DNA of 64,000 nt from a virus. Of the stretch, positions 49,418 through 59,947 are shown in pieces (the stretch's first letter is position 1; every line of letters starts with the position of its first letter). A program made the position numbers and the translations under genes. The stretch spans positions 23,131 through 87,130 of IMG/VR virus record IMGVR_UViG_3300022699_000293, one strand, 5' to 3'. The notes beneath the pieces are model-generated. The model saw only the letters and a program-made list of their open reading frames with translations, was not told where the DNA came from and did not search any database.

Positions 49418-50362
49418 ATGTTCGATTTGTTAGAAAAAATAGCAATACCTGAAGACGCCTTTTCGAAACGACTCAAAGCGCGTGAACGTGCTTTAGCCGA
49501 AGCTCGAGGAATGGCTCATAAACCTCCAGGTTCTAGAATTTCTGGAGTAGGTTCACATCCTGTTTTAGAAAAAGAGATTATAAAACAAACAGGACCTAGT
49601 ACAGGACAGAAAATCAAATACCATACGCTGGGACGTTTAAAACGTTTTTGGGGCCAACCAGGAAAATATAAATTATTACGCCGTGCTGGCGTGTTAGGAG
49701 GGTTAACTGGTTTGGGGTTATTAGGAAAAGCTTGGTATGACGCAGCACAAAATGAGAAAGTATTGAAAAATTTACAAGCACAACAAGCGCTACGAAAATT
49801 TAGTGCCAAAAAAGATTACCGTCCAGAAGCTCCCGTAACACCTAAACCTCCAGGATACCCATCAGAGCCTGCTCCTATGAGTACATCTGCGGGACCCCCG
49901 AATACTCCGCCGCCCCCAGAAAGTTTGGAATACGCTGAGAAATCTCAAAAACCTCCGAAACCTCCTAAGTTAAAAACAGCAGAAGAGGTTATTTCAAAAA
50001 TAGCATTTTTAGAAGAAGGTGCTACTCCCTGGCTTGCCGGTGCGGGTGGGGGTGTGGGAGGTTACCTTCTAGGTAAGAAAGTTGTTGATCCTTTACTTAA
50101 AATGAAACAAGAATCTATTTTAAACAATATACGTAAAGGACGTAAGATCGTTGAAGGTTTAGAAAAAAGTAGAAAAATAGCGCCTCTCGCGGGTGCTACT
50201 ATCGGAGCTCTTCTCTTAGCTGCTTTGACTGCTAAAAAAGCTAAAGATAAGCAAATAGAAGATATGTTGCGTATACAAGCAGCGGGAGGGCCAGGGCAAG
50301 AAGGTTTTTATCCCTATAATGTACGAAGTGTACGAGATCCGAGAGCAGCGTACTATGGCTGA
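49418..50362 (+). CDS. Multi-segment glycine-zipper KxA protein
   Basis: MFDLLEKIA, RKFS, LKTA, SKIA separating hydrophobic modules. Confidence 0.6.
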   Translation: MFDLLEKIAIPEDAFSKRLKARERALAEARGMAHKPPGSRISGVGSHPVLEKEIIKQTGPSTGQKIKYHTLGRLKRFWGQPGKYKLLRRAGVLGGLTGLGLLGKAWYDAAQNEKVLKNLQAQQALRKFSAKKDYRPEAPVTPKPPGYPSEPAPMSTSAGPPNTPPPPESLEYAEKSQKPPKPPKLKTAEEVISKIAFLEEGATPWLAGAGGGVGGYLLGKKVVDPLLKMKQESILNNIRKGRKIVEGLEKSRKIAPLAGATIGALLLAALTAKKAKDKQIEDMLRIQAAGGPGQEGFYPYNVRSVRDPRAAYYG

Positions 50363-50554
50363 ACCTACAATATATCGAAGAGCTACCATCACTCTTCCAG
50401 CAAAACAACCAAAAAAAAGAGATTTAGAAAAATGGTATAAGCATCGAAAACATAAAAGTCGTTCCTTAACCCCTCCCCGTTCTCATAAAAATTAGTTGAA
50501 AAACTAGATATTCTCTGGTACAAGAAAATCACAGGAATGGATCTTTGATATTTC

Positions 50555-50938
50555 GGGGGTGACACGGTTTCTACGTTTGTGCAGGCCATGTTTTAGGTGC
50601 ACGTCCCGCTTTGTGTATTTCAGCGGGTTAAAAAGAATACACAAGTAAAGTTGGCAACAACGTAATTCCTTTCCCGAAGGTTGCAGCGACACCCGTCGCC
50701 AAAGCTGCCTGATGTGGGAATGTTCTGCGCGTAAGGTGCTCAAGTAGCGCGTAGGGCAACATTCACTTGAGCTAAGCTAAAGGGATCTCTGCTATCTTTA
50801 GTCGAAAAACAAGCACGCAGAGCAATGCTGTTTCACATTCGTTTGCTTGTGTGTAACAGTAAGGAAAAGCAAACTAAACGTGTGAATGACCTGGGCATAA
50901 CCCACAGGCGGACTCGGGTTCGACTCCCGACACCTCCA
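50555..50938 (+). ncRNA. ssrA: tmRNA; tag peptide (A)GNNVIPFPKVAATPVAKAA
   Basis: GGGGGTG/CACCTCC acceptor with G3:U wobble and discriminator A; T-arm TCGGGTTCGACTCCCGA; tag ORF 50653-50712 ending in AA-stop; CCA not encoded. Confidence 0.92.
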
Positions 50939-50973
50939 CTAGTTCTTTGACAACATAATACCATGATTTCCTC

Positions 50974-51039
50974 TGTCCCCTCACGAAACATCCTTAATAA
51001 GGATGTCTCAGATCTCCTGACTGACGAGTTGAGGGGACA
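50974..51039 (+). ncRNA. Type II hammerhead ribozyme
   Basis: C-GAAA, stem III ACATCCTT/AAGGATGT, GUC cleavage triplet (51005-07), stem I TCAG/CTGA, CTGACGA-G core, stem II TGTCCCCTC/GAGGGGACA. Confidence 0.88.
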
Positions 51040-51128
51040 AAGCAGTTAACTGATCTGCTTATCAATAACAGTTGGTACAGTGATTTCTGTGGAAAAAAAG
51101 TTTAAGGTCTACGTACTTTAACCTTTTT

Positions 51129-51237
51129 GGGAAATTAGTCGACGGACTAAAAAGGGAGACATTGCAATTGTCGCCTGGAGGTTCGAACCCTCACGCTGTA
51201 TCCGAAAATAAGTAAACTTCGGCAACTTGTTTTCCCT
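51129..51237 (+). pseudogene. Aberrant tRNA-Cys(GCA)-like element with ~37-nt insert after the T-arm
   Basis: GACA-TTGCAAT-TGTC anticodon arm; GAGG-TTCGAAC-CCTC T-arm; GGGAAA/TTTCCC acceptor with U discriminator displaced downstream. Confidence 0.5.
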
Positions 51238-51264
51238 GTTAACAATTTGCCGAATAAAGAAAGA

Positions 51265-51348
51265 GCCGGGATGGCGGAATTGGTAGACGTGAGGGACTTA
51301 AAATCCCTTGGGCAATTACCCGTGCGGGTTCGATTCCCGCTCCCGGTA
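51265..51348 (+). tRNA. tRNA-Leu(TAA)
   Basis: Full cloverleaf with long variable arm. Confidence 0.95.
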
Positions 51349-51357
51349 TTGTCATAT

Positions 51358-51431
51358 TGCAGGGTGGAGCAATTCGGTAGCTCGCCAGGTTCATACCCTG
51401 GAAGTTGCGGGTTCAAATCCCGTCCCTGCTA
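51358..51431 (+). tRNA. tRNA-Met(CAT), probably initiator
   Basis: Cloverleaf; 1:72 mismatch (T/T). Confidence 0.9.
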
Positions 51432-51664
51432 ATGTTCGTTGGCAGCGAACTAGTCATGGTAGGGAGACTCTAAAGATCAGGAATGCTAATTCCTTGCCCC
51501 CCCCCTACCCAGCTACTAGAGCTGAAATTTTCACTGAGTATTCTAGTCCCTGCTCAGTGTGCTGCTACAAATAAATAATAAAGTAAGCATATTCCCATCT
51601 TTCCCAAACTGTTTCTTTAACTCGCAGTATGTTACGTACTGCAGAAAAATCCTAGGAGGAAATC

Positions 51665-52309
51665 ATGACACAACAACAGAAAACAACTTTAGCAGAACTC
51701 CTACTCCGGAGAAAGGAATTGAACGTTCTGTATAACACGCGGGCGTTCGCCGTATCCAATCTTCGGGATCAATTGCGTAGGAGGCAAGTCTCCGACGAAG
51801 TGGACCAGTTGGAGGGACAAGTGTCCCTTGTAGATCCCGAAGAGCTGGAAAAGGAGACCAACTACTACGCACATCAGCGCCGGTTATCAGACAGCGTGGT
51901 CCAACAAGCCAATTGGACAACAACGCTTGAGGTGCCTCAAGCGTTGATGGATGACGAAAACACGGACGGAACCATGTCCTGCAAGCTGGCAGAACTCCTC
52001 GTGCGTCGCAAGGAACTCGACAGCGCGACACATTCGCGGAGCGTCGATCTGGGAGTCGTGGGACCTTACGTCGAGCAAAACGGCGTCTGGAAGCAAGTCA
52101 ACGAAAGAATCCCCGTGGAGAAGGGACTAAGCGAACTCTACCAGAAAGTAGAAAGGAAAGGACCGTCCCAGATCAGGGCGTTCATGCTGGTAGACACGTG
52201 CCAGAAGAAACTGCGTCTTCTGGACACCTACATCCAGAAGACAAACTGGGACACCGTGGTGGAGGTGCCCGCCACGGTCTTCGAGCCCTACCAACCTCAG
52301 AACTTGTAA
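51665..52309 (+). CDS. DIP1984-like protein, two tandem domains
   Basis: LAELLLRRKEL..VQQANWTT and LAELLVRRKEL..IQKTNWDT; SD aggagg; visibly higher GC than flanks. Confidence 0.7.
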   Translation: MTQQQKTTLAELLLRRKELNVLYNTRAFAVSNLRDQLRRRQVSDEVDQLEGQVSLVDPEELEKETNYYAHQRRLSDSVVQQANWTTTLEVPQALMDDENTDGTMSCKLAELLVRRKELDSATHSRSVDLGVVGPYVEQNGVWKQVNERIPVEKGLSELYQKVERKGPSQIRAFMLVDTCQKKLRLLDTYIQKTNWDTVVEVPATVFEPYQPQNL

Positions 52310-52382
52310 ACTTTTCTGATGTGACTCAAGTTGCCTGTAGTGGTTTTCTCGAGAAAGCTCACTGCAGGCAACTTGCTCACAT

Positions 52383-52669
52383 GGAGCAAGCGTAGCGTAC
52401 AGGATAAGGGGTTTGCACAGCACCCCGCCCCAAGCTGTAGTGTTGCTGGTAACACGTTGCATTCAGGAACATGATAAAGATGTTCATCATACGAATTTTG
52501 AGACTGCGTGAATTCCGATTGACCGACTGACCTTTTCTAGTTGTTAGTACTTACATTGAAACTCGCAACCAGATACCTCCAGAACATCCGATTGGAACCG
52601 AAAAATTGAACTTCCGCGCATACCCGATTACCCGAATTCCGAATTACCATATCCTGGGACGCTTGTTCC
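52383..52669 (+). ncRNA. Putative structured ncRNA with CCGA repeats downstream of the DIP1984-like gene
   Basis: Closing stems GGAGCAAGCGT/ACGCTTGTTCC and CAGGATA/TATCCTG; three internal hairpins; seven CCGA copies. Confidence 0.6.
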
Positions 52670-52674
52670 TTTTT

Positions 52675-52745
52675 TGGGGTGTCGACAAGTGGCAAGTCGC
52701 AAGGTTTTGGTCCTTGTATCGCAGGTTCGAATCCTGCCACCCCAG
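52675..52745 (+). tRNA. tRNA-Gln(TTG)
   Basis: Cloverleaf. Confidence 0.95.
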
Positions 52746-52817
52746 CTGGTATGCTCTACGTAGCTTAGGTTTTCTTTGCTATTTTCCTTTCTCCTTCCTA
52801 GGCTACGTAGAGTATAC

Positions 52818-52891
52818 GGCCCCGTCGTCTAACTGGTTAGGACATTGGCCTTTCACGCCAAAGACTGCGGGTTCAAATCCCGCCGGGGTCG
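52818..52891 (+). tRNA. tRNA-Glu(TTC)
   Basis: Cloverleaf. Confidence 0.95.
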
Positions 52892-53337
52892 CAGACCACG
52901 TTTTTCACAAGGGAATCCAAGTACTCTAACAAACAGTTAGAAGAAAGGGCAGTATTCTCTTCTGGACGTATCCCAGTACGTACAGTGACAGAAAAACTAG
53001 CACAAAGATGCCGTTCGCTTTGTGTGAAGGTCTTTAATAGCCGTAACGGCACGGCTACGGAGTGAGAAACTCAAGGAAAGTCTTTAGAAACTCTGCGGAA
53101 GTTTCTAAAGTAAGCTGCTAGGAAGCATGTGTCAGCCTAAGCAGTAAAGCAAGTACGCAGATATTTGAGCGCGACGCCGGTAGCGACGACACAACCGGCA
53201 CTTTTTCTCTTTTCTAAATCAAGTAAAATATACCTTTGGTTTAATTAAAGAACATTCGTATACTTCGATTAGGCAGCAGATTGTGTAGGTTTGTTCCCCC
53301 GCTTCCTATTCAGTTTGCTGCCTTTTAGTATCTTTTA

Positions 53338-53421
53338 GGAAGCGTGGCCGAGTTGGTTTAAGGCGGCGGTTTTGAAAACCGTTGAACTAACGTTCCGTGG
53401 GTTCGAATCCTACCGCTTCCG
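53338..53421 (+). tRNA. tRNA-Ser(TGA)
   Basis: Cloverleaf with long variable arm. Confidence 0.95.
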
Positions 53422-53497
53422 TCAATTTTTTTGGTAAAGATAATTTTTCGATAATTTTTAATTGTAGTAAGTTTACGCATATCGTATACTTGGAGGT

Positions 53498-53914
53498 ATG
53501 AAAAAGACAGCCAAAGAATTAGCAGTTCAAGTACTGTACAAAGTTGCGCGTACGCGTCAAAATATTGTAGGCGTTAGTAACCCTCAGGACGTTGCAGCGT
53601 TATCACGTGCGTACCAGGAAGGGGATTATGACGCTCCCTGGGAAATGCAATCTACAGATCCCAATCCTGTAACAACTTGGATTAAACGCTATAAAGCGAA
53701 AAACTTTGGAGAAATGCCTTCAGACATTGCGTTTGATCAGATGTACCCATACGGAATTTCTCCCGTAACAGGAAGTGAAGTTCCAGGATACGTGAAGCGG
53801 GAAGGATTGTTGAAAGCTCTAAGAGGCAGTGAGCACAAAGAACAGTCAAAACAACTTCTGGAACAACTTGAAGCAAGCGACTATCCATACTTCACCTCTA
53901 CCGAATTGGGTTGA
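53498..53914 (+). CDS. KxA-leader protein embedded in the tRNA island
   Basis: MKKTA..LYKVA; TATACTTG motif and GGAGG upstream. Confidence 0.6.
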   Translation: MKKTAKELAVQVLYKVARTRQNIVGVSNPQDVAALSRAYQEGDYDAPWEMQSTDPNPVTTWIKRYKAKNFGEMPSDIAFDQMYPYGISPVTGSEVPGYVKREGLLKALRGSEHKEQSKQLLEQLEASDYPYFTSTELG

Positions 53915-53941
53915 TCTAATCTTCTCAAATAGTTTTTTCTA

Positions 53942-54015
53942 CGGGGCATAGCGCAGTCTGGTAGCGCGCCAGCTTTGGGAGCTGGATGTCGTAAGTTCGA
54001 ATCTTACTGCCCCGA
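53942..54015 (+). tRNA. tRNA-Pro(TGG)
   Basis: Cloverleaf. Confidence 0.95.
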
Positions 54016-54066
54016 CAAAAAACAAATGACCGAAAATCTTGTTAAACACAAAGGAGTTTAAAATTC

Positions 54067-54309
54067 ATGAAAGATCCGAAGGTGGGAGATACTGCATACG
54101 TCGAAGATTGTAACGGAAAATGGACGCAATATTACTATAATGGGAATAATTGGATTTCCTGTCGAACTACGCAAACTACCGCTACTCCGACAATACCTCT
54201 AGAATTTCGTACCAACGCGGATAAGGATAAACATATTGGAATGAATATATTGAAAACTACCAAAGTTGCTCACAATCCACGCCTTTCAAAAAATGGTGAA
54301 GAAAAATAA
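54067..54309 (+). CDS. Hypothetical protein
   Basis: SD aaggag; 80 aa. Confidence 0.5.
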   Translation: MKDPKVGDTAYVEDCNGKWTQYYYNGNNWISCRTTQTTATPTIPLEFRTNADKDKHIGMNILKTTKVAHNPRLSKNGEEK

Positions 54310-54323
54310 ACGGAGGTGTTTTT

Positions 54324-54656
54324 ATGGGTTTGGTGACGCCTATCCTGATCAGAAATGATAGTTTGAATCATATTAAAGGAGATAAGGAAGAATTTGTAAA
54401 AAAGCTGTTGAATGCAGCTCAAACAGTCTCCTCTAAAACTTTAAGAGCAGGAAATTTCGTAAATGCTGCTGACTCGTTAGGAGCGCGCCATGCAAGCGTA
54501 ACTAGAGTGTTGGTAATATCTGAGAACACCATAATAGACCTCACAGAATTAATCTACGGTCGTCCTGATAAATCGTTGCACAAATTTCCACGCAAATTTA
54601 TAAAAAAATGTTTGAAAACAGTTAGACAACTGGTAAAAGATGCTCGAGGTTTGTAG
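54324..54656 (+). CDS. Hypothetical protein
   Basis: SD ggaggt; 110 aa. Confidence 0.6.
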   Translation: MGLVTPILIRNDSLNHIKGDKEEFVKKLLNAAQTVSSKTLRAGNFVNAADSLGARHASVTRVLVISENTIIDLTELIYGRPDKSLHKFPRKFIKKCLKTVRQLVKDARGL

Positions 54657-54670
54657 GTAATAATCTTTGA

Positions 54671-54744
54671 GGCTCAGTAGCTCAACGGACAAGAGCGACG
54701 GCTTGTTAAGTCGTGGGTTGCAGGTTCGAATCCTGCCTGGGCCG
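54671..54744 (+). tRNA. tRNA-Asn(GTT)
   Basis: Cloverleaf. Confidence 0.9.
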
Positions 54745-54796
54745 TTTTAATAGTCCAAAAAACATAACTGCAAACTTTAAATCGAAGGAGAAAAAA

Positions 54797-55054
54797 ATGG
54801 AAACAAACGGAAAATTGTTAGTATCGTGTACAGATCCTTATCAAGAACATCATAGTTGTGAGTGTTATTCCAGTAAAGGCCAAACAGCAATAAAGTTTGT
54901 AAACCACCACAGTAGAACTCAAGAATCGGGTTTTTCTAAAAAATGCGAATTTGCGACCATTGTTGACAAAAAGCATTTTTGCGAACATCCTTCAGTAGTT
55001 TCCCAATGTGTAAAAGATATTTTTCAAAATGAACTACACAAAAAAGCAACGTAA
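54797..55054 (+). CDS. Hypothetical Cys/His-rich protein
   Basis: SD aaggag before ATG 54797. Confidence 0.55.
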   Translation: METNGKLLVSCTDPYQEHHSCECYSSKGQTAIKFVNHHSRTQESGFSKKCEFATIVDKKHFCEHPSVVSQCVKDIFQNELHKKAT

Positions 55055-55194
55055 AGAACTTAAACAAAAATTAGAATTTTATAAAAATGATCCAATTTTC
55101 AATTTTCGAATTGACGAAGCGACCGTGTTAGCTTTGATAGAAGATTTGGAATTATTGGAATCACAAATTGAAAAACAATTTACTGGGTAAATTT

Positions 55195-55494
55195 ATGAAA
55201 TTGTGGATAGGCCCAGAACCTCCTTTGGACAACTCTTCATGGATTTGGGCACGTACTTTTAAAACTGCCATGCGTCTACTAGAACAAACTGATTGGATGT
55301 TTGACATAATTAGTACTGATTATTACTTGGGAGGAGAAAAAACAGGTTACCACATTTTAGAAAAAATATTACAACGCGTATACCTGAATAAACGTCCATT
55401 TCCTTTGATAGGCATACACGCAAAAAAACGCGAAGAACAGGCTACTTTACAACTGATGGCTGCTAGAATAAATAACGCTAAAATGAAACATTAG
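55195..55494 (+). CDS. Cyclic-phosphate-processing receiver-like domain protein (degenerate)
   Basis: KLWI..P..WIWART..A..LL..IISTDYYLG..TGY.IL..IH pattern. Confidence 0.55.
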   Translation: MKLWIGPEPPLDNSSWIWARTFKTAMRLLEQTDWMFDIISTDYYLGGEKTGYHILEKILQRVYLNKRPFPLIGIHAKKREEQATLQLMAARINNAKMKH

Positions 55495-55568
55495 GCCGTC
55501 CTAGCTCAATCAGGTAGAGCAGCTGGTTTGTAACCAGCAGGTTGCAGGTTCGATTCCTGTGGACGGCT
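55495..55568 (+). tRNA. tRNA-Thr(TGT)
   Basis: Cloverleaf. Confidence 0.95.
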
Positions 55569-55629
55569 TATCTTTCTTATTGTATACTTATTTTATTCAA
55601 AATTAGCTAAAGCCGCAGTGCTGGTTTTC

Positions 55630-55703
55630 GGGTCCATAGCGCAACTGGCTAGCGCTCCCGGCTCATAACCGGGTGGTTCTCGGTTCGATTCCGAGTGGAC
55701 CCA
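55630..55703 (+). tRNA. tRNA-CAT (elongator Met or Ile2)
   Basis: Cloverleaf with paired 1:72. Confidence 0.9.
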
Positions 55704-55721
55704 AATGCTGGTATTGGTTTC

Positions 55722-55794
55722 AGGCGGATAGCTCAGTTGGAAGAGCACAGCCCTTACAAGGCTGGGGTCGCAGGTTCGAACCCTGTTCCGCCTA
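55722..55794 (+). tRNA. tRNA-Val(TAC)
   Basis: Cloverleaf. Confidence 0.95.
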
Positions 55795-55801
55795 TTGCTC
55801 A

Positions 55802-55874
55802 GGGCCTGTAGCTCAGTTGGGAGAGCTCCGGCTTTGCAAGCCGGTTGTCGTCGGTTCGAATCCGACCAGGTCCA
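55802..55874 (+). tRNA. tRNA-Ala(TGC)
   Basis: Cloverleaf with G3:U70. Confidence 0.95.
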
Positions 55875-55915
55875 TTCCAGGTCCCTACAAACCAAAAAAA
55901 CAAACGGAGGAAAAA

Positions 55916-56278
55916 ATGAAAATTAGAGAAGGTATTCGCTACAAACATTACAGAACAAAGTACGACGGTGCTGTGACCGTAGCGTACGAAACAACACCAA
56001 ACAAAAATAAAGACAATGTTCACTTATGTATCGGTTTAGCGTGGTGTTCTCCCCGCGATCAATTTTGTAGAGCTAAAGGGCGTTTGATCGCAGAAGGCCG
56101 TTTAAAGTCTGATAAAAGTTGTATAGGAGACATGTACGAACGTAAAATCTTAGAAGAACAACCCGTACAAGATGTTGTGTTTTCTCTCATTGAGACTCAT
56201 GCTTCTGTCCCCAATTGGTATATACTTATGAAAACAACTTTACAATATAACCAAGAAACTAAAGACAGCAATTGTTGA
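55916..56278 (+). CDS. Phage hypothetical protein
   Basis: SD ggagg; G.TVAY..AWCSPRDQFCRAKGRLIA.GR motif seen in many phage proteins. Confidence 0.65.
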   Translation: MKIREGIRYKHYRTKYDGAVTVAYETTPNKNKDNVHLCIGLAWCSPRDQFCRAKGRLIAEGRLKSDKSCIGDMYERKILEEQPVQDVVFSLIETHASVPNWYILMKTTLQYNQETKDSNC

Positions 56279-56291
56279 TATGTTCTGTAAT

Positions 56292-56374
56292 GCGAGTGTG
56301 GCGGAATTAGGTAGACGCGCTGGATTTAGGTTCCGGTGGGATTTCCCGTGGAGGTTCGATTCCTCTCGCTCGCA
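56292..56374 (+). tRNA. tRNA-Leu(TAG)
   Basis: Cloverleaf with long variable arm. Confidence 0.95.
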
Positions 56375-56415
56375 TTTTTTTTCTTTCCAAACCAATCAAA
56401 TTGGGAGAATTTTCT

Positions 56416-56706
56416 ATGTCAAACAAAAAAGAACCAACGCGTAGTGAAGCAATGTTAGCAATGTGTCATGAGTGTTGTGGACACTATCAAGATGGAAAAG
56501 TCGATTGTGAAAATCCTAGGTGTCCTCTCTACAAGTGGATGCCCTACCGTAAACAGGAACCTATACTTGCCTGGACGGAATACAACCCGAAAGCTAAAGG
56601 TAAAGTTTTAAAAGCAGAAACAAAAAGAGAAATATCAGAAGAAAAGAAAAAAGAATTAGCAGAACGTATGAAAAAAGCTAGAAAAGCTAGGAAGAAAAAC
56701 ACCTAG
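56416..56706 (+). CDS. Small Zn-binding basic protein
   Basis: CHECCG..C...CPLY; basic tail. Confidence 0.65.
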   Translation: MSNKKEPTRSEAMLAMCHECCGHYQDGKVDCENPRCPLYKWMPYRKQEPILAWTEYNPKAKGKVLKAETKREISEEKKKELAERMKKARKARKKNT

Positions 56707-56789
56707 ATTTACCTTGTAAAATACCCTAAAATACAAAGTAGATAAATTTTTGGTACACGTTGTTGTGCAGGATTCAAAGGTGGTATTCT

Positions 56790-57482
56790 ATGAGCTTTTT
56801 AGGTACTTTCATCAAACAAGCCGTAATAACAGATGAAGACGTTGCTGCTGGTCTTGCAGGCTTAGGCAGGCAAGGTATTACTCCTGAAGAAGTAGAGGGT
56901 TTAGCTAGTAGACATCGAGAACTGGCAGCAGAATCCGCCAAGAACTATCCTTATGCAGGAGCGGGAGTAGGTGGTGCGTTAGGTGCTTTGGGCGGAATTT
57001 TGTTAGGAGCATCTCAAAAAACACCTTCGTGGTTAGGTAAAGCTACAGGAGCAGGATTAGGAGCATTGGCAGGTGGTGGTTTAGGAGCTCTTGGCGGTTT
57101 AGGAGGAAAAAAATCACGTACAGAAAAAGCACGTACTTTAGGACAAACTTTGGGCGAAATAGCTCGGGAAGGACGGGTTCCTTCAGACTTACCTAAAGGT
57201 GTATCTCCTGAAGCTCTAGTACCTTATGCTCGAGGAATCCAAGAACAAACCGCATCCCCTTTATCTCCGACAGAATATAGTACTATACGTTCCGCACTTG
57301 CACAACAACTTGGACCCCAAGCACAAGCAACCGGAACGTTTATAGATCCTGAAGATCCAGCTACAGGTGCTTTATTTGCTGCAGGTGGGTTAGAAGAAGC
57401 TAGAGATAAAGCTAACATGTTAGCAGATTTATATGAGAGAGGTTACGGACAATTAGCTGCGAAGATTTACGAAAGATTGTAA
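56790..57482 (+). CDS. Glycine-zipper KxA protein
   Basis: MSFLGTFIKQA leader; GAGVGGALGALGG and GAGLGALAGGGLGALGG. Confidence 0.65.
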   Translation: MSFLGTFIKQAVITDEDVAAGLAGLGRQGITPEEVEGLASRHRELAAESAKNYPYAGAGVGGALGALGGILLGASQKTPSWLGKATGAGLGALAGGGLGALGGLGGKKSRTEKARTLGQTLGEIAREGRVPSDLPKGVSPEALVPYARGIQEQTASPLSPTEYSTIRSALAQQLGPQAQATGTFIDPEDPATGALFAAGGLEEARDKANMLADLYERGYGQLAAKIYERL

Positions 57483-57485
57483 TCA

Positions 57486-57695
57486 ATGACTGTACACCAT
57501 GCAGATTACTATCAAAGTCCTTACTATCGAATTCATTGCTCTAATAAATGGGTCGAGACGGAATTTGAAAAAGACCCATCTCCTTTAGATGAAGTGTACA
57601 TGACAGTTGAAAATCTAAAATTCAGTCCTGTAGAAAAGTATGTAACTTGTTCAAAATGCTTGGAACTCATTCGAGAAGACGAACCTTCCGATTAG
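57486..57695 (+). CDS. Hypothetical small Zn-binding protein
   Basis: VH..C..VTCSKC. Confidence 0.5.
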   Translation: MTVHHADYYQSPYYRIHCSNKWVETEFEKDPSPLDEVYMTVENLKFSPVEKYVTCSKCLELIREDEPSD

Positions 57696-57748
57696 ATTTT
57701 TCTTCGTTTCTGCCCTATAATTGTTCCTGAAAACTCAATGAGGACGTT

Positions 57749-58309
57749 ATGGCAGAAACAAGCATACCTGGCGAATTTCCCAATCCTAATACACTTCCTT
57801 CAGGGGCAAGTGTTTTATCGACGGAATTATCTTCTACGTTCGACTTAGGAAACGACGAAGATCGCGACGCTGTTTGGCAAGAAGCAATCGAGGATATCGA
57901 ATACAATACGATGTTCTCGAGAGAGTATGAATTCGATCCTAGCACTACTCACTATTATATGGATTCCGCTACCGGACTGTATTCCGCCTACCCTATTTTT
58001 AAACCGGCATATACTTACGAGGACACCCCTGGCGTTCAGGGATACTTAGTGGCCTTGTTAATTAAATGTACTAAGGGTTCCTGTGTACTTATAAATGATG
58101 GAGGAAACGGCAAATCCATTCAGTATTTACCGTATCCCATGCACGTTGGAGACTTTCTTTTTTGGGCGGATCCACACGAACCTTTGGTGGGAATCAACGA
58201 AGACGGTTCATCCGATTCAATTTTAGGTCTTTTGGGAATAAAGGCAGCTACAGATGTAGGTGTTAGATTATCTGTGTATTCGTTTTATAGATTTGTGGAG
58301 AAGTCATAA
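57749..58309 (+). CDS. Acidic putative virion protein
   Basis: TATAATTG upstream; SD gagg. Confidence 0.55.
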   Translation: MAETSIPGEFPNPNTLPSGASVLSTELSSTFDLGNDEDRDAVWQEAIEDIEYNTMFSREYEFDPSTTHYYMDSATGLYSAYPIFKPAYTYEDTPGVQGYLVALLIKCTKGSCVLINDGGNGKSIQYLPYPMHVGDFLFWADPHEPLVGINEDGSSDSILGLLGIKAATDVGVRLSVYSFYRFVEKS

Positions 58310-58956
58310 TGGGAAGTACACCGTCCCCAGCATTCGAAATGTCCCATCTCATAGCTCTGTACGGGGACAATTCAGGAGAAGTAAAAACCGAAGGACAGAT
58401 TACTTTCCCTTTCGGTGACGAATCTTCCGGTTCCAGAAATCCTGTACTGCACATGGATATCGACACCGATTACAAGTCTCGTATCGCTACCACACTCGAC
58501 ATAGGTCCCACAAATCCCACACGCGACTTGTCAACATTTCCTTCTTACGATTCCAACAATATTTCAATATATATTGATCCAGGCTGGCTGGACGTAGTAT
58601 TGGGTATGGGGACTATCGAAACTCAACCAGCATGGGGCGGACAATTATTTCTTCGTCATCTTGTCATAAAATGTGAAGCAGGAGCTATCTCTCTTGTTTA
58701 CGGTGCGTTAGACCCTTACAACGATACTGCCATGAACTCTCCCGCAGAAATACGTCCTTTTGTACTGCAAGAAGGTGGCGTATTCGCACAATCGTTTACA
58801 GGTACTCGCGCACCCACCACAATTATAGATCCTGGCCCGTTGGGAACTCATTTAACTCCTACAGTACAAGGAGTTCCTTCTCTTGTAATGCAGACCTTCG
58901 AAGATTTGAATCGTATAAAAATTTTAGCATTCGTACAACGCCATAATTTAAGGTAA
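58309..58956 (+). CDS. Acidic putative virion protein, possible distant paralog of the upstream gene
   Basis: TAATG coupling; LVIKCEAG vs LLIKCTKG. Confidence 0.55.
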   Translation: MGSTPSPAFEMSHLIALYGDNSGEVKTEGQITFPFGDESSGSRNPVLHMDIDTDYKSRIATTLDIGPTNPTRDLSTFPSYDSNNISIYIDPGWLDVVLGMGTIETQPAWGGQLFLRHLVIKCEAGAISLVYGALDPYNDTAMNSPAEIRPFVLQEGGVFAQSFTGTRAPTTIIDPGPLGTHLTPTVQGVPSLVMQTFEDLNRIKILAFVQRHNLR

Positions 58957-58969
58957 AAGAAAAGTAAAG

Positions 58970-59626
58970 ATGCCTCAACCACGCTCCCATTTTTACGATT
59001 TCCTGGCGGGAATAGACCCGACAGGAACGAAAACATTCCAATACGGAATGGAAGATATTGAGCATGGAAAACCTTCAGGTGCTCGTGGAGCCAGTAGAGC
59101 TATCGGTACAGTTGGAGGAATTCTCGGCGGTGCCGCTGTAATACCTGGAGCAGTAGGAGGAGTTATAGGCGGTACTAAGGGTTTGTTGATGGGCCGAGGA
59201 GGATGGAGAGGACGTTTACTGGGAGCTGCTCGAGGTTTGTTGAGTGGTGCAAAAAAACCTTACACGTCTTTATACCGGGGCGGACAAGCTAAACGAGCAC
59301 TTGGCGCACATCAAGCAGGAAAAAAATTAACAAAACAACAAGCAGAACATATTCGTAAATTTGTTAAAGAACAATTACCGGAAAGTGTTGCTCGAGCAGG
59401 AAATATACATCCTAGCGCAATTCAACAAGGTCTTAATCGACTTTCTCCTTCCCAATTAGCCAAAGTTCATAGAGAGTTAGGGAGTGAGCTGGGTGCGGGA
59501 GCAGCATCTCTAGGATTGTCCGGAGCTATTAGTGGCGGCAGTGCCTATGCACAGTATGGTAAAGGCGTAACTACCGGACAACGAAAAAAAACAAACACTG
59601 GTTTGTTGCGACACAAAATTAAATAA
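58970..59626 (+). CDS. Basic glycine-zipper protein
   Basis: GTVGGILGG..GAVGGVIGG; GAGAASLGLSGAISGG. Confidence 0.6.
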   Translation: MPQPRSHFYDFLAGIDPTGTKTFQYGMEDIEHGKPSGARGASRAIGTVGGILGGAAVIPGAVGGVIGGTKGLLMGRGGWRGRLLGAARGLLSGAKKPYTSLYRGGQAKRALGAHQAGKKLTKQQAEHIRKFVKEQLPESVARAGNIHPSAIQQGLNRLSPSQLAKVHRELGSELGAGAASLGLSGAISGGSAYAQYGKGVTTGQRKKTNTGLLRHKIK

Positions 59627-59870
59627 AAACGCATCAGTTTTTCTAGCGCACATGCAAAATTTTCATGCGTCCTTAGATATGTCTATTTTGCGTGTTTTCT
59701 AAGGAAAAATAGTTCGTTACGAACTCTGAGACTGTTAATTAACAAGCATATTAGGTAAAGTTTTTAATAAGTTATATTATCATTATTATGTACCATAATA
59801 ATAATAATACTAACTTATTAAAAGACTTAATAATTCAAGTGATGCGTCACTTAAGTTCTATGCTATAATT

Positions 59871-59947
59871 GGACCCGTAGTTCAGCCAGGAAGAATAGCG
59901 GACTTTTAATCCGTAGGTCGTGGGTTCGAATCCCACCGGGTCCTCCA
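59871..59947 (+). tRNA. tRNA-Lys(TTT), CCA encoded
   Basis: Cloverleaf ending in T-CCA. Confidence 0.95.

What the first reader, a model, noticed from the sequence alone, without database searches (positions are those of the whole stretch)
51665..52669. Tandem DIP1984-like gene coupled to a closed ~290-nt RNA with CCGA repeats: candidate uncharacterised RNP module
Seen: a GC-rich gene encoding two LAELL.RRKEL...Q..NW.T domains is followed by a long hairpin (52319-52382). A domain then follows (52383-52669) whose ends pair (GGAGCAAGCGT/ACGCTTGTTCC, CAGGATA/TATCCTG). It holds three small hairpins and a weakly paired tract with seven CCGA copies (52515, 52523, 52588, 52598, 52624, 52632, 52639), ending at a U-run before tRNA-Gln. 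The compositional shift suggests gene and RNA arrived as a unit. Inference: the oligomeric coiled-coil protein binds the repeats, by analogy to CsrB-type sponges or type III antitoxin RNAs. I know of no established function for this family.
Basis: partly seen in the sequence, partly recalled or inferred. Interest (0 to 1): 0.8.

Follow-up and report, generated by a model that had tools for sequence, protein, structure and literature searches.

The report
Phage repeat-tract RNA with partner protein
Behind a small gene of unknown function in this phage's tRNA cluster lies a real, knotted ~290-base non-coding RNA with evenly spaced CCGA units; the same gene-plus-RNA pair recurs in about a hundred very different phages and prophages, so the two most likely form an undescribed protein-RNA particle whose job is unknown.

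Summary
A 214-aa tandem DIP1984/DUF6847-like gene (51665-52309) is followed by a long hairpin and a closed 287-nt RNA (52383-52669) with seven CCGA copies, a U-run and then tRNA-Gln.

The RNA is real and conserved. Two related phage contigs keep the closing stems P1 and P2, a hairpin and a pseudoknot through compensatory changes. Single-domain (~100 aa) homologues of the gene in Vibrio podophages, 80 IMG/VR contigs and prophages (e.g. Legionella maceachernii) carry the same RNA.
- Gene-first, a covariance model of the 5' domain hits 75 of the 80 IMG/VR loci (79 of all 85 sources).
- RNA-first, 14 of 14 assessable RNAs have the gene alongside.
- Covariation is strong for P1, P2, the pseudoknot and P4.
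- CCGA units sit on a ~7.6-nt lattice.
- Most relatives, but not this window's copy, embed a tRNA-like arm.
- The module sits in different genomic neighbourhoods, so it moves as a cassette.
- The RNA core matches no Rfam family, and no paper in the library names the protein family.

Protein-RNA binding is inferred, not shown. The function is unknown.

Earlier notes of this scan describe the same module on other DNA. Their claim that it occurs in phage T5 was not reproduced with my models.

The parts
51665..52309 (+). Tandem DIP1984/DUF6847-like gene (214 aa; two beta-alpha-beta-beta-alpha-beta halves); RBS AGGAGG at 51654-51659
   Evidence: ORF. Pfam PF20935 scores 40 bits against a cut-off of 27. 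AF2 model pLDDT 93. 3KDQ aligns at Z 12.2. Ten homologues at about 50% identity.
52319..52382 (+). Long hairpin between the stop codon and the RNA, with no U-run. Possible processing site or insulator.
   Evidence: A hairpin of different sequence sits at the same place in L004 (long) and L002 (short).
52383..52393 (+). P1, 5' strand (pairs with 52659-52669)
   Evidence: Compensatory changes in L002 (GGACAGGCGU/GCGCCUGUCC) and L004 (GGAUGGGCGU/GCGCCCAUCC). P1 in the wider family is 100% paired, with 8 of 10 pairs changed on both sides.
52394..52399 (+). Asymmetric internal loop between P1 and P2 (AGCGUA, opposite GG at 52657-52658). Family consensus is 5' KGCGW / 3' GR, which looks k-turn-like but is untested.
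   Evidence: Read.
52400..52406 (+). P2, 5' strand (pairs with 52650-52656)
   Evidence: CAGAGC/GCUCUG in L002 and CAGGAC/GUCCUG in L004. P2 in the family is 95.7% paired, with 4 of 6 pairs changed on both sides.
52408..52426 (+). P3 hairpin: GGGG (52408-52411) pairs with CCCC (52423-52426). Its loop holds the 5' strand of the pseudoknot, ACAGC at 52417-52421.
   Evidence: Model R1 matches 52394-52464 at 30.4 bits, E 4e-4.
52434..52438 (+). Pseudoknot 3' strand GCUGU, pairing with 52417-52421
   Evidence: Covaries across relatives: ACGGC/GCCGU in L002 and L004, ACUUU/AAAGU in Vibrio phages. All 5 pairs change on both sides among 52 sequences.
52440..52455 (+). P4 hairpin (GUGUU/AACAC), followed by the conserved CGUUGC at 52455-52460
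   Evidence: 6 of 6 pairs change on both sides.
52467..52485 (+). P5-like hairpin with an A-rich loop, at the start of the variable central region. In most relatives a tRNA-like arm sits in this region.
   Evidence: ARAGORN finds no tRNA inside 52383-52669.
52510..52649 (+). Repeat tract with CCGA at 52515, 52523, 52588, 52598, 52624, 52632 and 52639. The last unit is CCGAAUUACCA (52639-52649), matching the family's 3' motif CCGAHURACCA.
   Evidence: In the family CCGA is 8.8-fold enriched and spacings peak at 7-8, 15-16, 22-24, 30-31 and 38 nt. The 3' motif is conserved in about 60 loci.
52650..52656 (+). P2, 3' strand
52659..52669 (+). P1, 3' strand. Locally it can also form a small terminator-like hairpin (52656-52669).
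52670..52675 (+). U-run marking the probable 3' end; conserved in L002 and L004
52675..52746 (+). tRNA-Gln(UUG) directly downstream. It is a neighbour, not part of the closed RNA.
   Evidence: L002 has the same neighbour.

Best explanation
The region is a two-part phage accessory cassette. One part is a DIP1984-fold protein, here a fused tandem that pairs into a dimer. The other is a stable structured non-coding RNA encoded next to it on the same strand.

The RNA has four features:
- It is closed by a long end-to-end helix (P1, an internal loop, then P2).
- It has a pseudoknotted 5' domain (P3, pseudoknot, P4).
- It has a variable centre, which in most relatives is a tRNA-shaped arm. That arm is absent in this window's clade.
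- It has a largely unpaired 3' tract in which CCGA-type units sit on a ~7.6-nt lattice, ending in CCGAHURACCA.

Proposed mechanism:
1. The RNA is made on the gene's strand, probably on the same transcript. It ends here at the U-run, and is perhaps trimmed at P1 or at the upstream hairpin.
2. Multivalent protein units dock on the periodic units, and possibly on the P1/P2 loop.
3. The result is a ribonucleoprotein (RNP) that acts in trans during infection. The most plausible field of action is a tRNA-linked or inter-element conflict.

Shown here: the RNA structure, its conservation, and the two-way gene-RNA linkage.
Inferred: transcription, binding and role.
For: Structure and conservation of the RNA:
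- Compensatory P1, P2, pseudoknot and P4 changes between the window, L002 and L004.
- The same architecture follows 32%-identical single-domain homologues in Vibrio podophages.
- 52-sequence 5'-domain alignment: 79.5% of cells paired against 58.2% in shuffles; covariation score 0.622 against 0.233 (0 of 500 shuffles as high); slid controls at most 0.197.
- Full-length alignment of 8 sequences: 94.2% paired, 24 of 36 pairs changed on both sides, score 0.565 against 0.204.
- Duplex energy between a locus's own 5' and 3' flanks averages -32.1 kcal/mol, against -15.6 for flanks taken from different loci.
- G-U pairs are frequent in the stems, and the tRNA-like arms and the U-run all lie on the gene's strand.

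Gene-RNA linkage:
- Model R1 hits 79 of 85 sources, always on the gene's strand and once per locus.
- In the RNA-first scan, 16 true RNAs were found, and 14 of the 14 assessable ones have the gene adjacent.
- 7 of 10 loci in bacterial genomes also carry the RNA.

Cassette behaviour:
- The neighbours differ from locus to locus: terminase and portal, AAA_24 and helicase, DNA methylase, ParB, helicase and sigma factor, or a tRNA island.
- The order is reversed (RNA upstream of the gene) in L087 and L125.

Repeat lattice:
- CCGA is 8.8-fold enriched in the tract, with periodic spacing.

Protein:
- The AF2 model has pLDDT 93.2.
- One DIP1984 chain (3KDQ) spans both halves of the tandem at Z 12.2.
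- Homodimer prediction: score 0.76, best of 3 controls 0.00. That mark was reached by 20 of 30 proteins solved as pairs and by 1 of 23 solved as single chains. The runs share at least 98% of contacts and the partner's pLDDT is at least 87. Because 3KDQ was solved with four chains, the pass may partly reflect memory of that structure.
Against: - No experiment or computation here shows that the RNA is transcribed or that the protein binds it.
- No RNA run could be listed for this sequence, so transcription stays untested.
- The protein family is acidic to neutral (median pI 6.07; window protein 5.41), which is unlike most general RNA binders.
- Its only structural relative has no known function.
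- Tight linkage could also arise from co-transcription of two parts that work independently.
- The window's copy scores weakly on the family model (30.4 bits, E 4e-4, with the window in the seed) and lacks the tRNA-like arm.
- Within the window's own phage clade the synteny is conserved throughout, so the linkage there is uninformative on its own.
Confidence: 0.55

Rival explanations
1. The RNA works on its own as a stable tRNA-linked RNA, for example a tRNA carrier or precursor scaffold, or a decoy for host enzymes or nucleases that recognise tRNA shape. The neighbouring protein is merely co-expressed, or acts on the same pathway without binding the RNA.
For: - Most relatives embed a tRNA or tRNA-like arm, and the window copy abuts tRNA-Gln inside a tRNA island.
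- Some arms are permuted in the YrlA manner and cannot be released as tRNAs.
- The protein family is not basic.
Against: - The gene is adjacent in 14 of 14 RNA-first cases, across unrelated contexts. That is tighter than co-expression alone would require.
- The window, L002, L004 and the Vibrio copies have no tRNA-like arm, yet they keep the core and the gene.
Confidence: 0.2
2. A VIPR-like guide particle. Protein protomers polymerise along the repeat tract, the conserved CCGA cores are held by the protein, and the variable spacer bases read a nucleic-acid target in a noncontiguous way.
For: - VIPR systems are phage-encoded, with a small protein next to RNAs made of short-period repeats (conserved GGY alternating with variable NN) plus a pseudoknotted tail. 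Vipr protomers form a filament on the RNA (bioRxiv 10.64898/2026.04.26.720920 and 10.64898/2026.04.26.720927, abstract).
- Here the CCGA/GA cores are conserved while the spacers differ among close relatives.
- The lattice is regular.
- The protein is predicted to self-associate.
Against: - The unit is 7-8 nt, not 5 nt, and positions +1 to +3 after CCGA are also constrained, so few bases are free to carry a code.
- Fold searches returned no RAMP or RRM protein.
- The RNA is 3-5 times longer than a vrRNA, closed, and often carries a tRNA-like arm.
- No complementary TCGG clusters occur in the window.
- No target search was done.
Confidence: 0.12
3. A toxin-antitoxin-like pair (type III logic): the protein is harmful, and the adjacent repeat RNA neutralises it.
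For: - A protein gene is tightly linked to a repeat-bearing RNA.
- The pair travels as a mobile cassette in phages and prophages.
Against: - Known type III systems have about 36-nt tandem repeats upstream of an endoribonuclease toxin, separated from it by a terminator. Here the RNA lies downstream, the units are 7-8 nt, and they are embedded in a large fold.
- There is no PADLOC hit.
- The protein fold is DIP1984, not ToxN-like.
Confidence: 0.06
4. The element works at the DNA level: a replication origin with iterons, a miniature transposable element bounded by inverted repeats, or simply a structured 3' UTR or terminator of the gene.
For: - Terminal inverted repeats and short repeated motifs are present.
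- The Vibrio copy lies in a replication module.
- A U-run follows the 3' strand.
Against: - There is one copy in the 87-kb record.
- Pseudoknot covariation and abundant G-U pairs are strand-specific RNA features.
- The genomic position varies from the head module to the replication module to a tRNA island.
- The tRNA-like arms are always on the gene's strand.
- The structure is far more elaborate than a terminator.
Confidence: 0.05

Closest known systems
VIPR systems (Vipr RAMP protein plus vrRNA; bioRxiv 10.64898/2026.04.26.720920)
   Same: - Phage-encoded minimal locus.
- A small protein gene lies beside non-coding RNA built of short-period units, in which a conserved core alternates with variable bases.
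- The RNA has a pseudoknotted conserved part.
- The protein is expected to bind in multiple copies.
   Different: - The protein has a DIP1984 fold, and no RAMP or RRM relative was returned by the fold searches.
- Units are CCGA-type on a 7-8-nt lattice, not YNNGG on 5 nt.
- The RNA is 290-500 nt, closed by a long helix, and often carries a tRNA-like arm.
- There is no vap accessory gene.
- Binding and targeting are untested here.
Bacterial Y RNAs (YrlA, Rfam RF02553) with Ro60/Rsr
   Same: - The RNA is closed by pairing of its two ends.
- It is encoded next to its presumed protein partner.
- Many relatives carry a tRNA-shaped module. In L052, L106 and L079 that module is permuted as in YrlA and gives sub-threshold YrlA matches (33-36.5 bits against a gathering score of 69).
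   Different: - There is no Ro60/TROVE gene.
- The Ro-binding stem is not matched.
- The pseudoknot domain and the repeat tract are extra features.
- The window's copy has no tRNA-like module. The only YrlA match in the scanned stretch (E 0.38, at 51301-51417, over two adjacent tRNAs) lies outside the RNA.
DIP1984 family / Pfam DUF6847 (PF20935; crystal structure 3KDQ)
   Same: - The protein passes the Pfam threshold.
- Its model superposes on 3KDQ at Z 12.2 over 151 residues.
   Different: - The phage forms are either half-size single domains (~100 aa) or tandems of two such halves.
- The protein scores below the NCBIfam cut-off.
- The cellular family has no known function, and no RNA partner is described in the literature I could search.
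Type III toxin-antitoxin systems (ToxIN, CptIN, TenpIN)
   Same: A protein gene tightly linked to a repeat-containing RNA, on phage-related mobile DNA.
   Different: - The gene order is opposite.
- The repeats are short units inside a large fold, not ~36-nt tandem copies.
- The protein is not ToxN-like.
CsrB/RsmZ-type protein sponges
   Same: Many copies of a short motif that could titrate a dimeric protein.
   Different: - The motif here is CCGA on a regular lattice in a mostly unpaired tract, not GGA in hairpin loops.
- The partner gene is linked here.
- The partner has a different fold.
RAGATH-27 (RF03100), and the large phage RNAs ROOL and GOLLD
   Same: - All are orphan structured RNAs found in phages, often near tRNA genes.
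- Earlier notes of this scan say that RAGATH-27 covers the first ~86 nt of related RNAs in other genomes.
   Different: - No match to RF03100, ROOL or GOLLD at E up to 1 in 50000-57000 of the window or in 18 related loci.
- The link to RAGATH-27 is untested for this subfamily.

Membership tests
Pfam DUF6847 (PF20935) / DIP1984 family | Sequence match above Pfam's gathering score | tested here: met
   40.0 bits against a cut-off of 27, E 4.7e-10, in 2 stretches. Residues 4-88 align to profile positions 62-141.
Pfam DUF6847 (PF20935) / DIP1984 family | NCBIfam NF038048 curated cut-off | tested here: not met
   37.8 bits against a cut-off of 70. This is a divergent phage branch.
Pfam DUF6847 (PF20935) / DIP1984 family | Fold of the solved member 3KDQ | tested here: met
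   Foldseek E 1.8e-4, TM 0.71 on the target. VIA-align Z 12.2, 151 residues aligned, model range 6-200.
Any Rfam 15 family (for the RNA core) | Covariance-model match at or near the gathering score | tested here: not met
   No match in 52310-52670 at E up to 1. In 18 related loci, only the embedded arms match, as tRNA or sub-threshold YrlA.
YrlA / bacterial Y RNA | tRNA-like module (T-arm, closed acceptor stem, D-arm) plus a Ro60-binding stem, with an rsr gene nearby | tested here: not met
   The window RNA has no T- or D-arm. In L052 only the tRNA-like module aligns, and the Ro-binding stem positions are marked non-canonical. No TROVE protein was seen among the neighbours examined.
VIPR | vrRNA with at least 4 tandem YNNGG units (5-nt period) | tested here: not met
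   Units are CCGA-type, with spacing peaks at 7-8 nt and multiples of that. Definition taken from 10.64898/2026.04.26.720920.
VIPR | Vipr protein with a RAMP fold (RRM core, G-loop, thumb) | tested here: inconclusive
   Each half of the model runs beta-alpha-beta-beta-alpha-beta, but no RAMP or RRM chain was listed by Foldseek or VIA-align. A missing match does not exclude the fold.
Type III toxin-antitoxin | Tandem ~34-36-nt antitoxin repeats upstream of a ToxN-like endoribonuclease gene | tested here: not met
   No such repeats were reported in 51400-52800. The RNA lies downstream of the gene. There is no PADLOC match.
The new gene-RNA module itself (as defined here) | 5' pseudoknot domain (model R1) on the gene's strand beside a DUF6847-like gene, with a CCGA tract ending in CCGAHURACCA and P1/P2 closure | tested here: met
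   R1 matches window 52394-52464 at 30.4 bits, E 4e-4, with the window in the seed. The tract, the 3' motif and the closure are read directly from the sequence.

The most novel reading that the evidence does not exclude
This is a second, independent class of phage repeat-coded ribonucleoprotein. DIP1984-fold dimers polymerise on a 7-8-nt CCGA lattice. The variable spacer bases act as programmable specificity determinants against competing genetic elements or host tRNA-directed defences. In most members the fast-switching anticodon of the embedded tRNA-shaped arm would do the same.
Probability: 0.12. Interest if true: 0.95.

Novelty: categorically new. Interest (0 to 1): 0.82.

Why it matters
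If the pair is a true RNP, it gives a first functional handle on the DIP1984/DUF6847 family, which has had a crystal structure since 2009 but no known role.

It also adds a widespread, ornate RNA class to phage biology. The module is found in phages of Vibrio and in prophage-like regions of Legionella. It is also found on contigs assigned to Acidobacteriota, Firmicutes, Planctomycetota and other phyla.

The RNA joins four features not known together: an end-closing helix, a covarying pseudoknot, an optional tRNA mimic attached in two different topologies, and a periodic short-unit tract. After the recent VIPR discovery, a second protein-on-repeat-RNA system with an unrelated protein would suggest this logic evolved more than once.

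Cultured carriers (Vibrio phages PS32B.1 and 1.264.O; Legionella maceachernii ATCC 35300) make it directly testable.

Tried and rejected
- blastn of the locus against GenBank phages found no match.
- A 17-mer from the P3 hairpin scanned over IMG/VR gave 35 hits. Only the two known relatives were real; the rest were chance.
- Alignment A6 was too diverse for a locus scan. Alignment A7 found nothing in IMG/VR.
- The first genome-contig scan, with the tandem alignment, found nothing.
- PHROGs gave no significant match (one at E 0.28) and PADLOC none.
- A profile search of PDB sequences found only 3KDQ, at E 0.35.
- The look-up of sequencing runs listed no run, and no RNA holder was listed.
- Phage T5 (AY543070) gave no match with PF20935, the A8 profile, model R1 or RF03100. 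A more divergent subfamily could still be present.
- No complementary TCGG clusters were found in the window that could serve as antisense targets.
- RNase P RNA, SRP RNA, 6S RNA, retron msr-msd and group I intron were considered, because the RNA is closed or lies next to tRNAs. All were dropped: the Rfam scan at E up to 1 returned no match to any of them, I could not recognise their conserved core motifs by eye (from memory, not a tool test), and no reverse-transcriptase gene was noticed next to the RNA.
- A full-length covariance model was not attempted, because about 300 positions exceeds the calibration limit.
Full report
**Setting.** The window is part of an 87-kb IMG/VR virus record that CheckV estimates to be 49% complete. 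The finding lies in an island of stable-RNA genes, all on the + strand: a tmRNA at 50555-50941 (Rfam, 100 bits) and 13 tRNAs.

**Observation.**
- ORF 51665-52309 encodes 214 aa behind an AGGAGG site. It matches Pfam DUF6847 at 40 bits (cut-off 27) in two stretches, and NCBIfam DIP1984_fam below its cut-off.
- A long hairpin at 52319-52382 follows the stop codon.
- The next 287 nt are closed by an 11-bp helix (52383-52393 with 52659-52669) and a 7-bp helix (52400-52406 with 52650-52656), in both the MFE and the centroid structures.
- Seven CCGA copies lie between 52515 and 52642. The next densest 160-nt stretch in the 64 kb has three.
- A T-run and tRNA-Gln follow.
- The G+C rise concerns the gene only.

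**Close relatives.**
- The protein has about ten homologues at roughly 50% identity.
- Two IMG/VR contigs, L002 and L004, hold the complete locus in the same tmRNA/tRNA island.
- Both have a homologous RNA after the gene, and their helices differ from the window's by compensatory changes:
  - P1: GGAGCAAGCGU/ACGCUUGUUCC (window), GGACAGGCGU/GCGCCUGUCC (L002), GGAUGGGCGU/GCGCCCAUCC (L004).
  - P2: CAGGAUA/UAUCCUG, CAGAGC/GCUCUG, CAGGAC/GUCCUG.
  - Loop-to-downstream pseudoknot: ACAGC/GCUGU in the window, ACGGC/GCCGU in L002 and L004.
- All three end in a U-run. Because these phages are syntenic, linkage within this clade alone proves little.

**Distant relatives.**
- A profile search of 1.8 billion representative proteins found 124 proteins at E below 1e-3. 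They are either tandems of 205-230 aa or single domains of about 100 aa.
- tblastn found the single-domain form (32% identity) in cultured Vibrio podophages of the Zobellviridae, lying between a helicase gene and sigma-factor genes. The 300-370-nt gap behind it holds the same RNA, with closing helices, a GGGUUUGUACUUUACCC hairpin, an ACUUU/AAAGU pseudoknot and five or six ACAUCCGA units.
- A locus scan with 14 single-domain proteins returned 80 IMG/VR loci. Most show a CCGA cluster 200-320 nt after the stop codon and a strongly conserved 3' motif, CCGAHURACCA.

**Structure and covariation.**
- On a 52-sequence alignment of the 5' domain, RNAalifold itself picks the pseudoknot stem and P4.
- Counting my structure (P3, pseudoknot, P4) on that alignment gives 79.5% paired cells against 58.2% in shuffles. 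The covariation score is 0.622 against 0.233 (0 of 500 shuffles as high), and slid controls reach at most 0.197. All 5 pseudoknot pairs and all 6 P4 pairs change on both sides.
- On a full-length alignment of eight diverse RNAs, P1 is 100% paired with 8 of 10 pairs changed on both sides, and P2 is 95.7% paired with 4 of 6. Overall the score is 0.565 against 0.204 (0 of 500), with slid controls at most 0.113.
- Independently of any alignment, the duplex between a locus's own 5' and 3' flanks averages -32.1 kcal/mol, against -15.6 for flanks from different loci.
- Between P1 and P2 sits a conserved asymmetric loop (5' KGCGW, 3' GR). It looks k-turn-like, but I did not test that.
- Frequent G-U pairs, the tRNA-like arms and the U-run place the RNA on the gene's strand.

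**Linkage in both directions.**
- A covariance model of the 5' domain (R1) matches 79 of 85 sources, once each and always on the gene's strand. Among the matches are loci that were not in its seed.
- In L087 and L125 the RNA lies upstream of the gene. In a few loci one or two ORFs intervene.
- For an RNA-first sample I scanned IMG/VR with an 18-nt pattern from the RNA's 3' end. Of 45 hits, 16 have an R1 domain 150-300 nt upstream on the same strand. Of those 16, 14 have the gene adjacent (HMM E below 1e-34). The other two are cut by the end of the fetched sequence exactly where the gene would be. Six of the contigs were new.
- In bacterial genome assemblies, 7 of 10 loci carrying the gene also carry the RNA. 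These include a Legionella maceachernii ATCC 35300 contig and Mb-scale MAG contigs.

**Genome context.** The module's neighbours differ between loci: large terminase and portal, AAA_24 and helicase, DNA methylase, ParB, helicase and sigma factor, or a tRNA island. It therefore behaves as a mobile accessory cassette. That argues against an origin of replication or a packaging element.

**The repeat tract.**
- In the last 150 nt of 60 RNAs, CCGA is 8.8-fold over expectation (297 seen, 33.7 expected). In the last 170 nt there are 4.9 copies per RNA on average.
- Start-to-start spacings peak at 7-8, 15-16, 22-24, 30-31 and 38 nt, which is a lattice of about 7.6 nt.
- Weakened units such as CUGA, CAGA and GAAC fill the empty positions.
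- The unit consensus is Y-CCGA-H-U-R.

**The tRNA-like arm.**
- In about a third of the relatives ARAGORN calls a tRNA inside the RNA. Many others show recognisable D- and T-arms.
- In L052, L106 and L079 the arm is permuted, with the T-arm first and a closed acceptor stem, and it gives sub-threshold YrlA matches. The Ro-binding stem is not matched.
- Thus the same scaffold carries a tRNA-shaped arm attached either by its acceptor ends or by its anticodon stem.
- The window, L002, L004 and the Vibrio copies have no such arm. In the window and L002 a tRNA-Gln gene lies directly downstream.
- Among embedded tRNAs at least 80% identical to each other, 9 of 10 pairs differ in the anticodon.

**The protein.**
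- AlphaFold2 with 38 sequences gives pLDDT 93.2 and pTM 0.80. Each half runs strand, 24-residue helix, beta-hairpin, 28-residue helix, strand.
- The only convincing structural neighbour is 3KDQ (DIP1984, function unknown). One 3KDQ chain spans both halves of the tandem.
- A homodimer prediction passes: score 0.76, best of 3 controls 0.00. That mark was reached by 20 of 30 proteins solved as pairs and by 1 of 23 solved as single chains. The runs share at least 98% of contacts and the partner's pLDDT is at least 87. Because 3KDQ was solved as four chains, the pass may partly be memory of that structure.
- The family is acidic to neutral.

**What is known.**
- No Rfam family matches the RNA core.
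- No paper in the searchable library contains 'DUF6847' or 'DIP1984'.
- Earlier notes of this scan describe the same module in other genomes. They pointed me to VIPR and to RAGATH-27.
- I read the VIPR preprint. Vipr is a RAMP protein, and vrRNAs are about 100-nt arrays of YNNGG units. That is a different protein and a different unit, but a suggestive parallel in logic.
- RAGATH-27 does not match here. The T5 claim was not reproduced with four different queries.

**Reading.**
- The RNA's structure and conservation, and the obligate gene-RNA pairing, are shown.
- Transcription, processing, protein binding to the lattice and the biological role are inferred.
- I put direct protein-RNA association at a little over one half. 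The leading alternative is an RNA that acts alone with a co-expressed protein.

Noticed in passing
L054, L058, L059, L062 and L064 (embedded tRNA at about 1910-1990 in each): Embedded tRNAs that are 80-89% identical to each other and share the same anticodon stem carry different anticodons (TCT, GTT, CCT, GAT). Nine of 10 close pairs differ. Several family members have odd anticodons (AAT, ATG, ATC, TTA, or a 4-base anticodon). This looks like rapid anticodon switching, or drift in a tRNA mimic.
   Followed up: partly
L052:1915-2020; also L106:1942-2001 and L079:2055-2122: In some relatives the tRNA-shaped arm is circularly permuted, in the order T-arm, closed acceptor hairpin, D-arm, as in bacterial Y RNA (YrlA). 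It gives YrlA matches at 33-36.5 bits, below the gathering score of 69.
   Followed up: partly
window 50555-50941: A phage-encoded tmRNA (Rfam, 100 bits) that ARAGORN did not call in the window. In L002, L003 and L004 ARAGORN calls the homologous tmRNA, with an unusually long 30-residue tag (for example GQTQAEFCAMTPGKRKRSKTVMTRLSEVTV).
   Followed up: no
window 51265-59947: An island of 13 tRNA genes, all on the + strand, interspersed with small ORFs and ORF-free stretches.
   Followed up: no
L181 (NZ_FUXJ01000015.1, Legionella maceachernii ATCC 35300), gene 2501-2794, RNA 5' domain 2827-2892: The gene-RNA module occurs in the genome of a cultured Legionella strain, probably in a prophage. That offers a laboratory system besides the Vibrio phages.
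   Followed up: partly
L087:1203-1271 and L125:1133-1200: In two loci the RNA's 5' domain lies upstream of the gene instead of downstream, still on the same strand.
   Followed up: no
L079, L085, L086, L092, L097 and L124 (just 5' of P1); L002:2915-2925 and L004:2873-2883 (upstream of the gene): A shared CTTTGAAA-type motif precedes the RNA or the gene in several clades. It may be a phage promoter or a processing signal.
   Followed up: no
window 52394-52399 with 52657-52658; family loop 5' KGCGW / 3' GR: The conserved asymmetric internal loop between P1 and P2 resembles a kink-turn (a 3-nt bulge followed by G-A opposite G-A in members with GGCGA/GA).
   Followed up: no
The genome search control genomes: Among the 14 control genomes, only Deinococcus radiodurans has a DUF6847 match above the cut-off. 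It is also the classic Ro60/Y-RNA organism. Whether its gene has an RNA neighbour was not examined.
   Followed up: no
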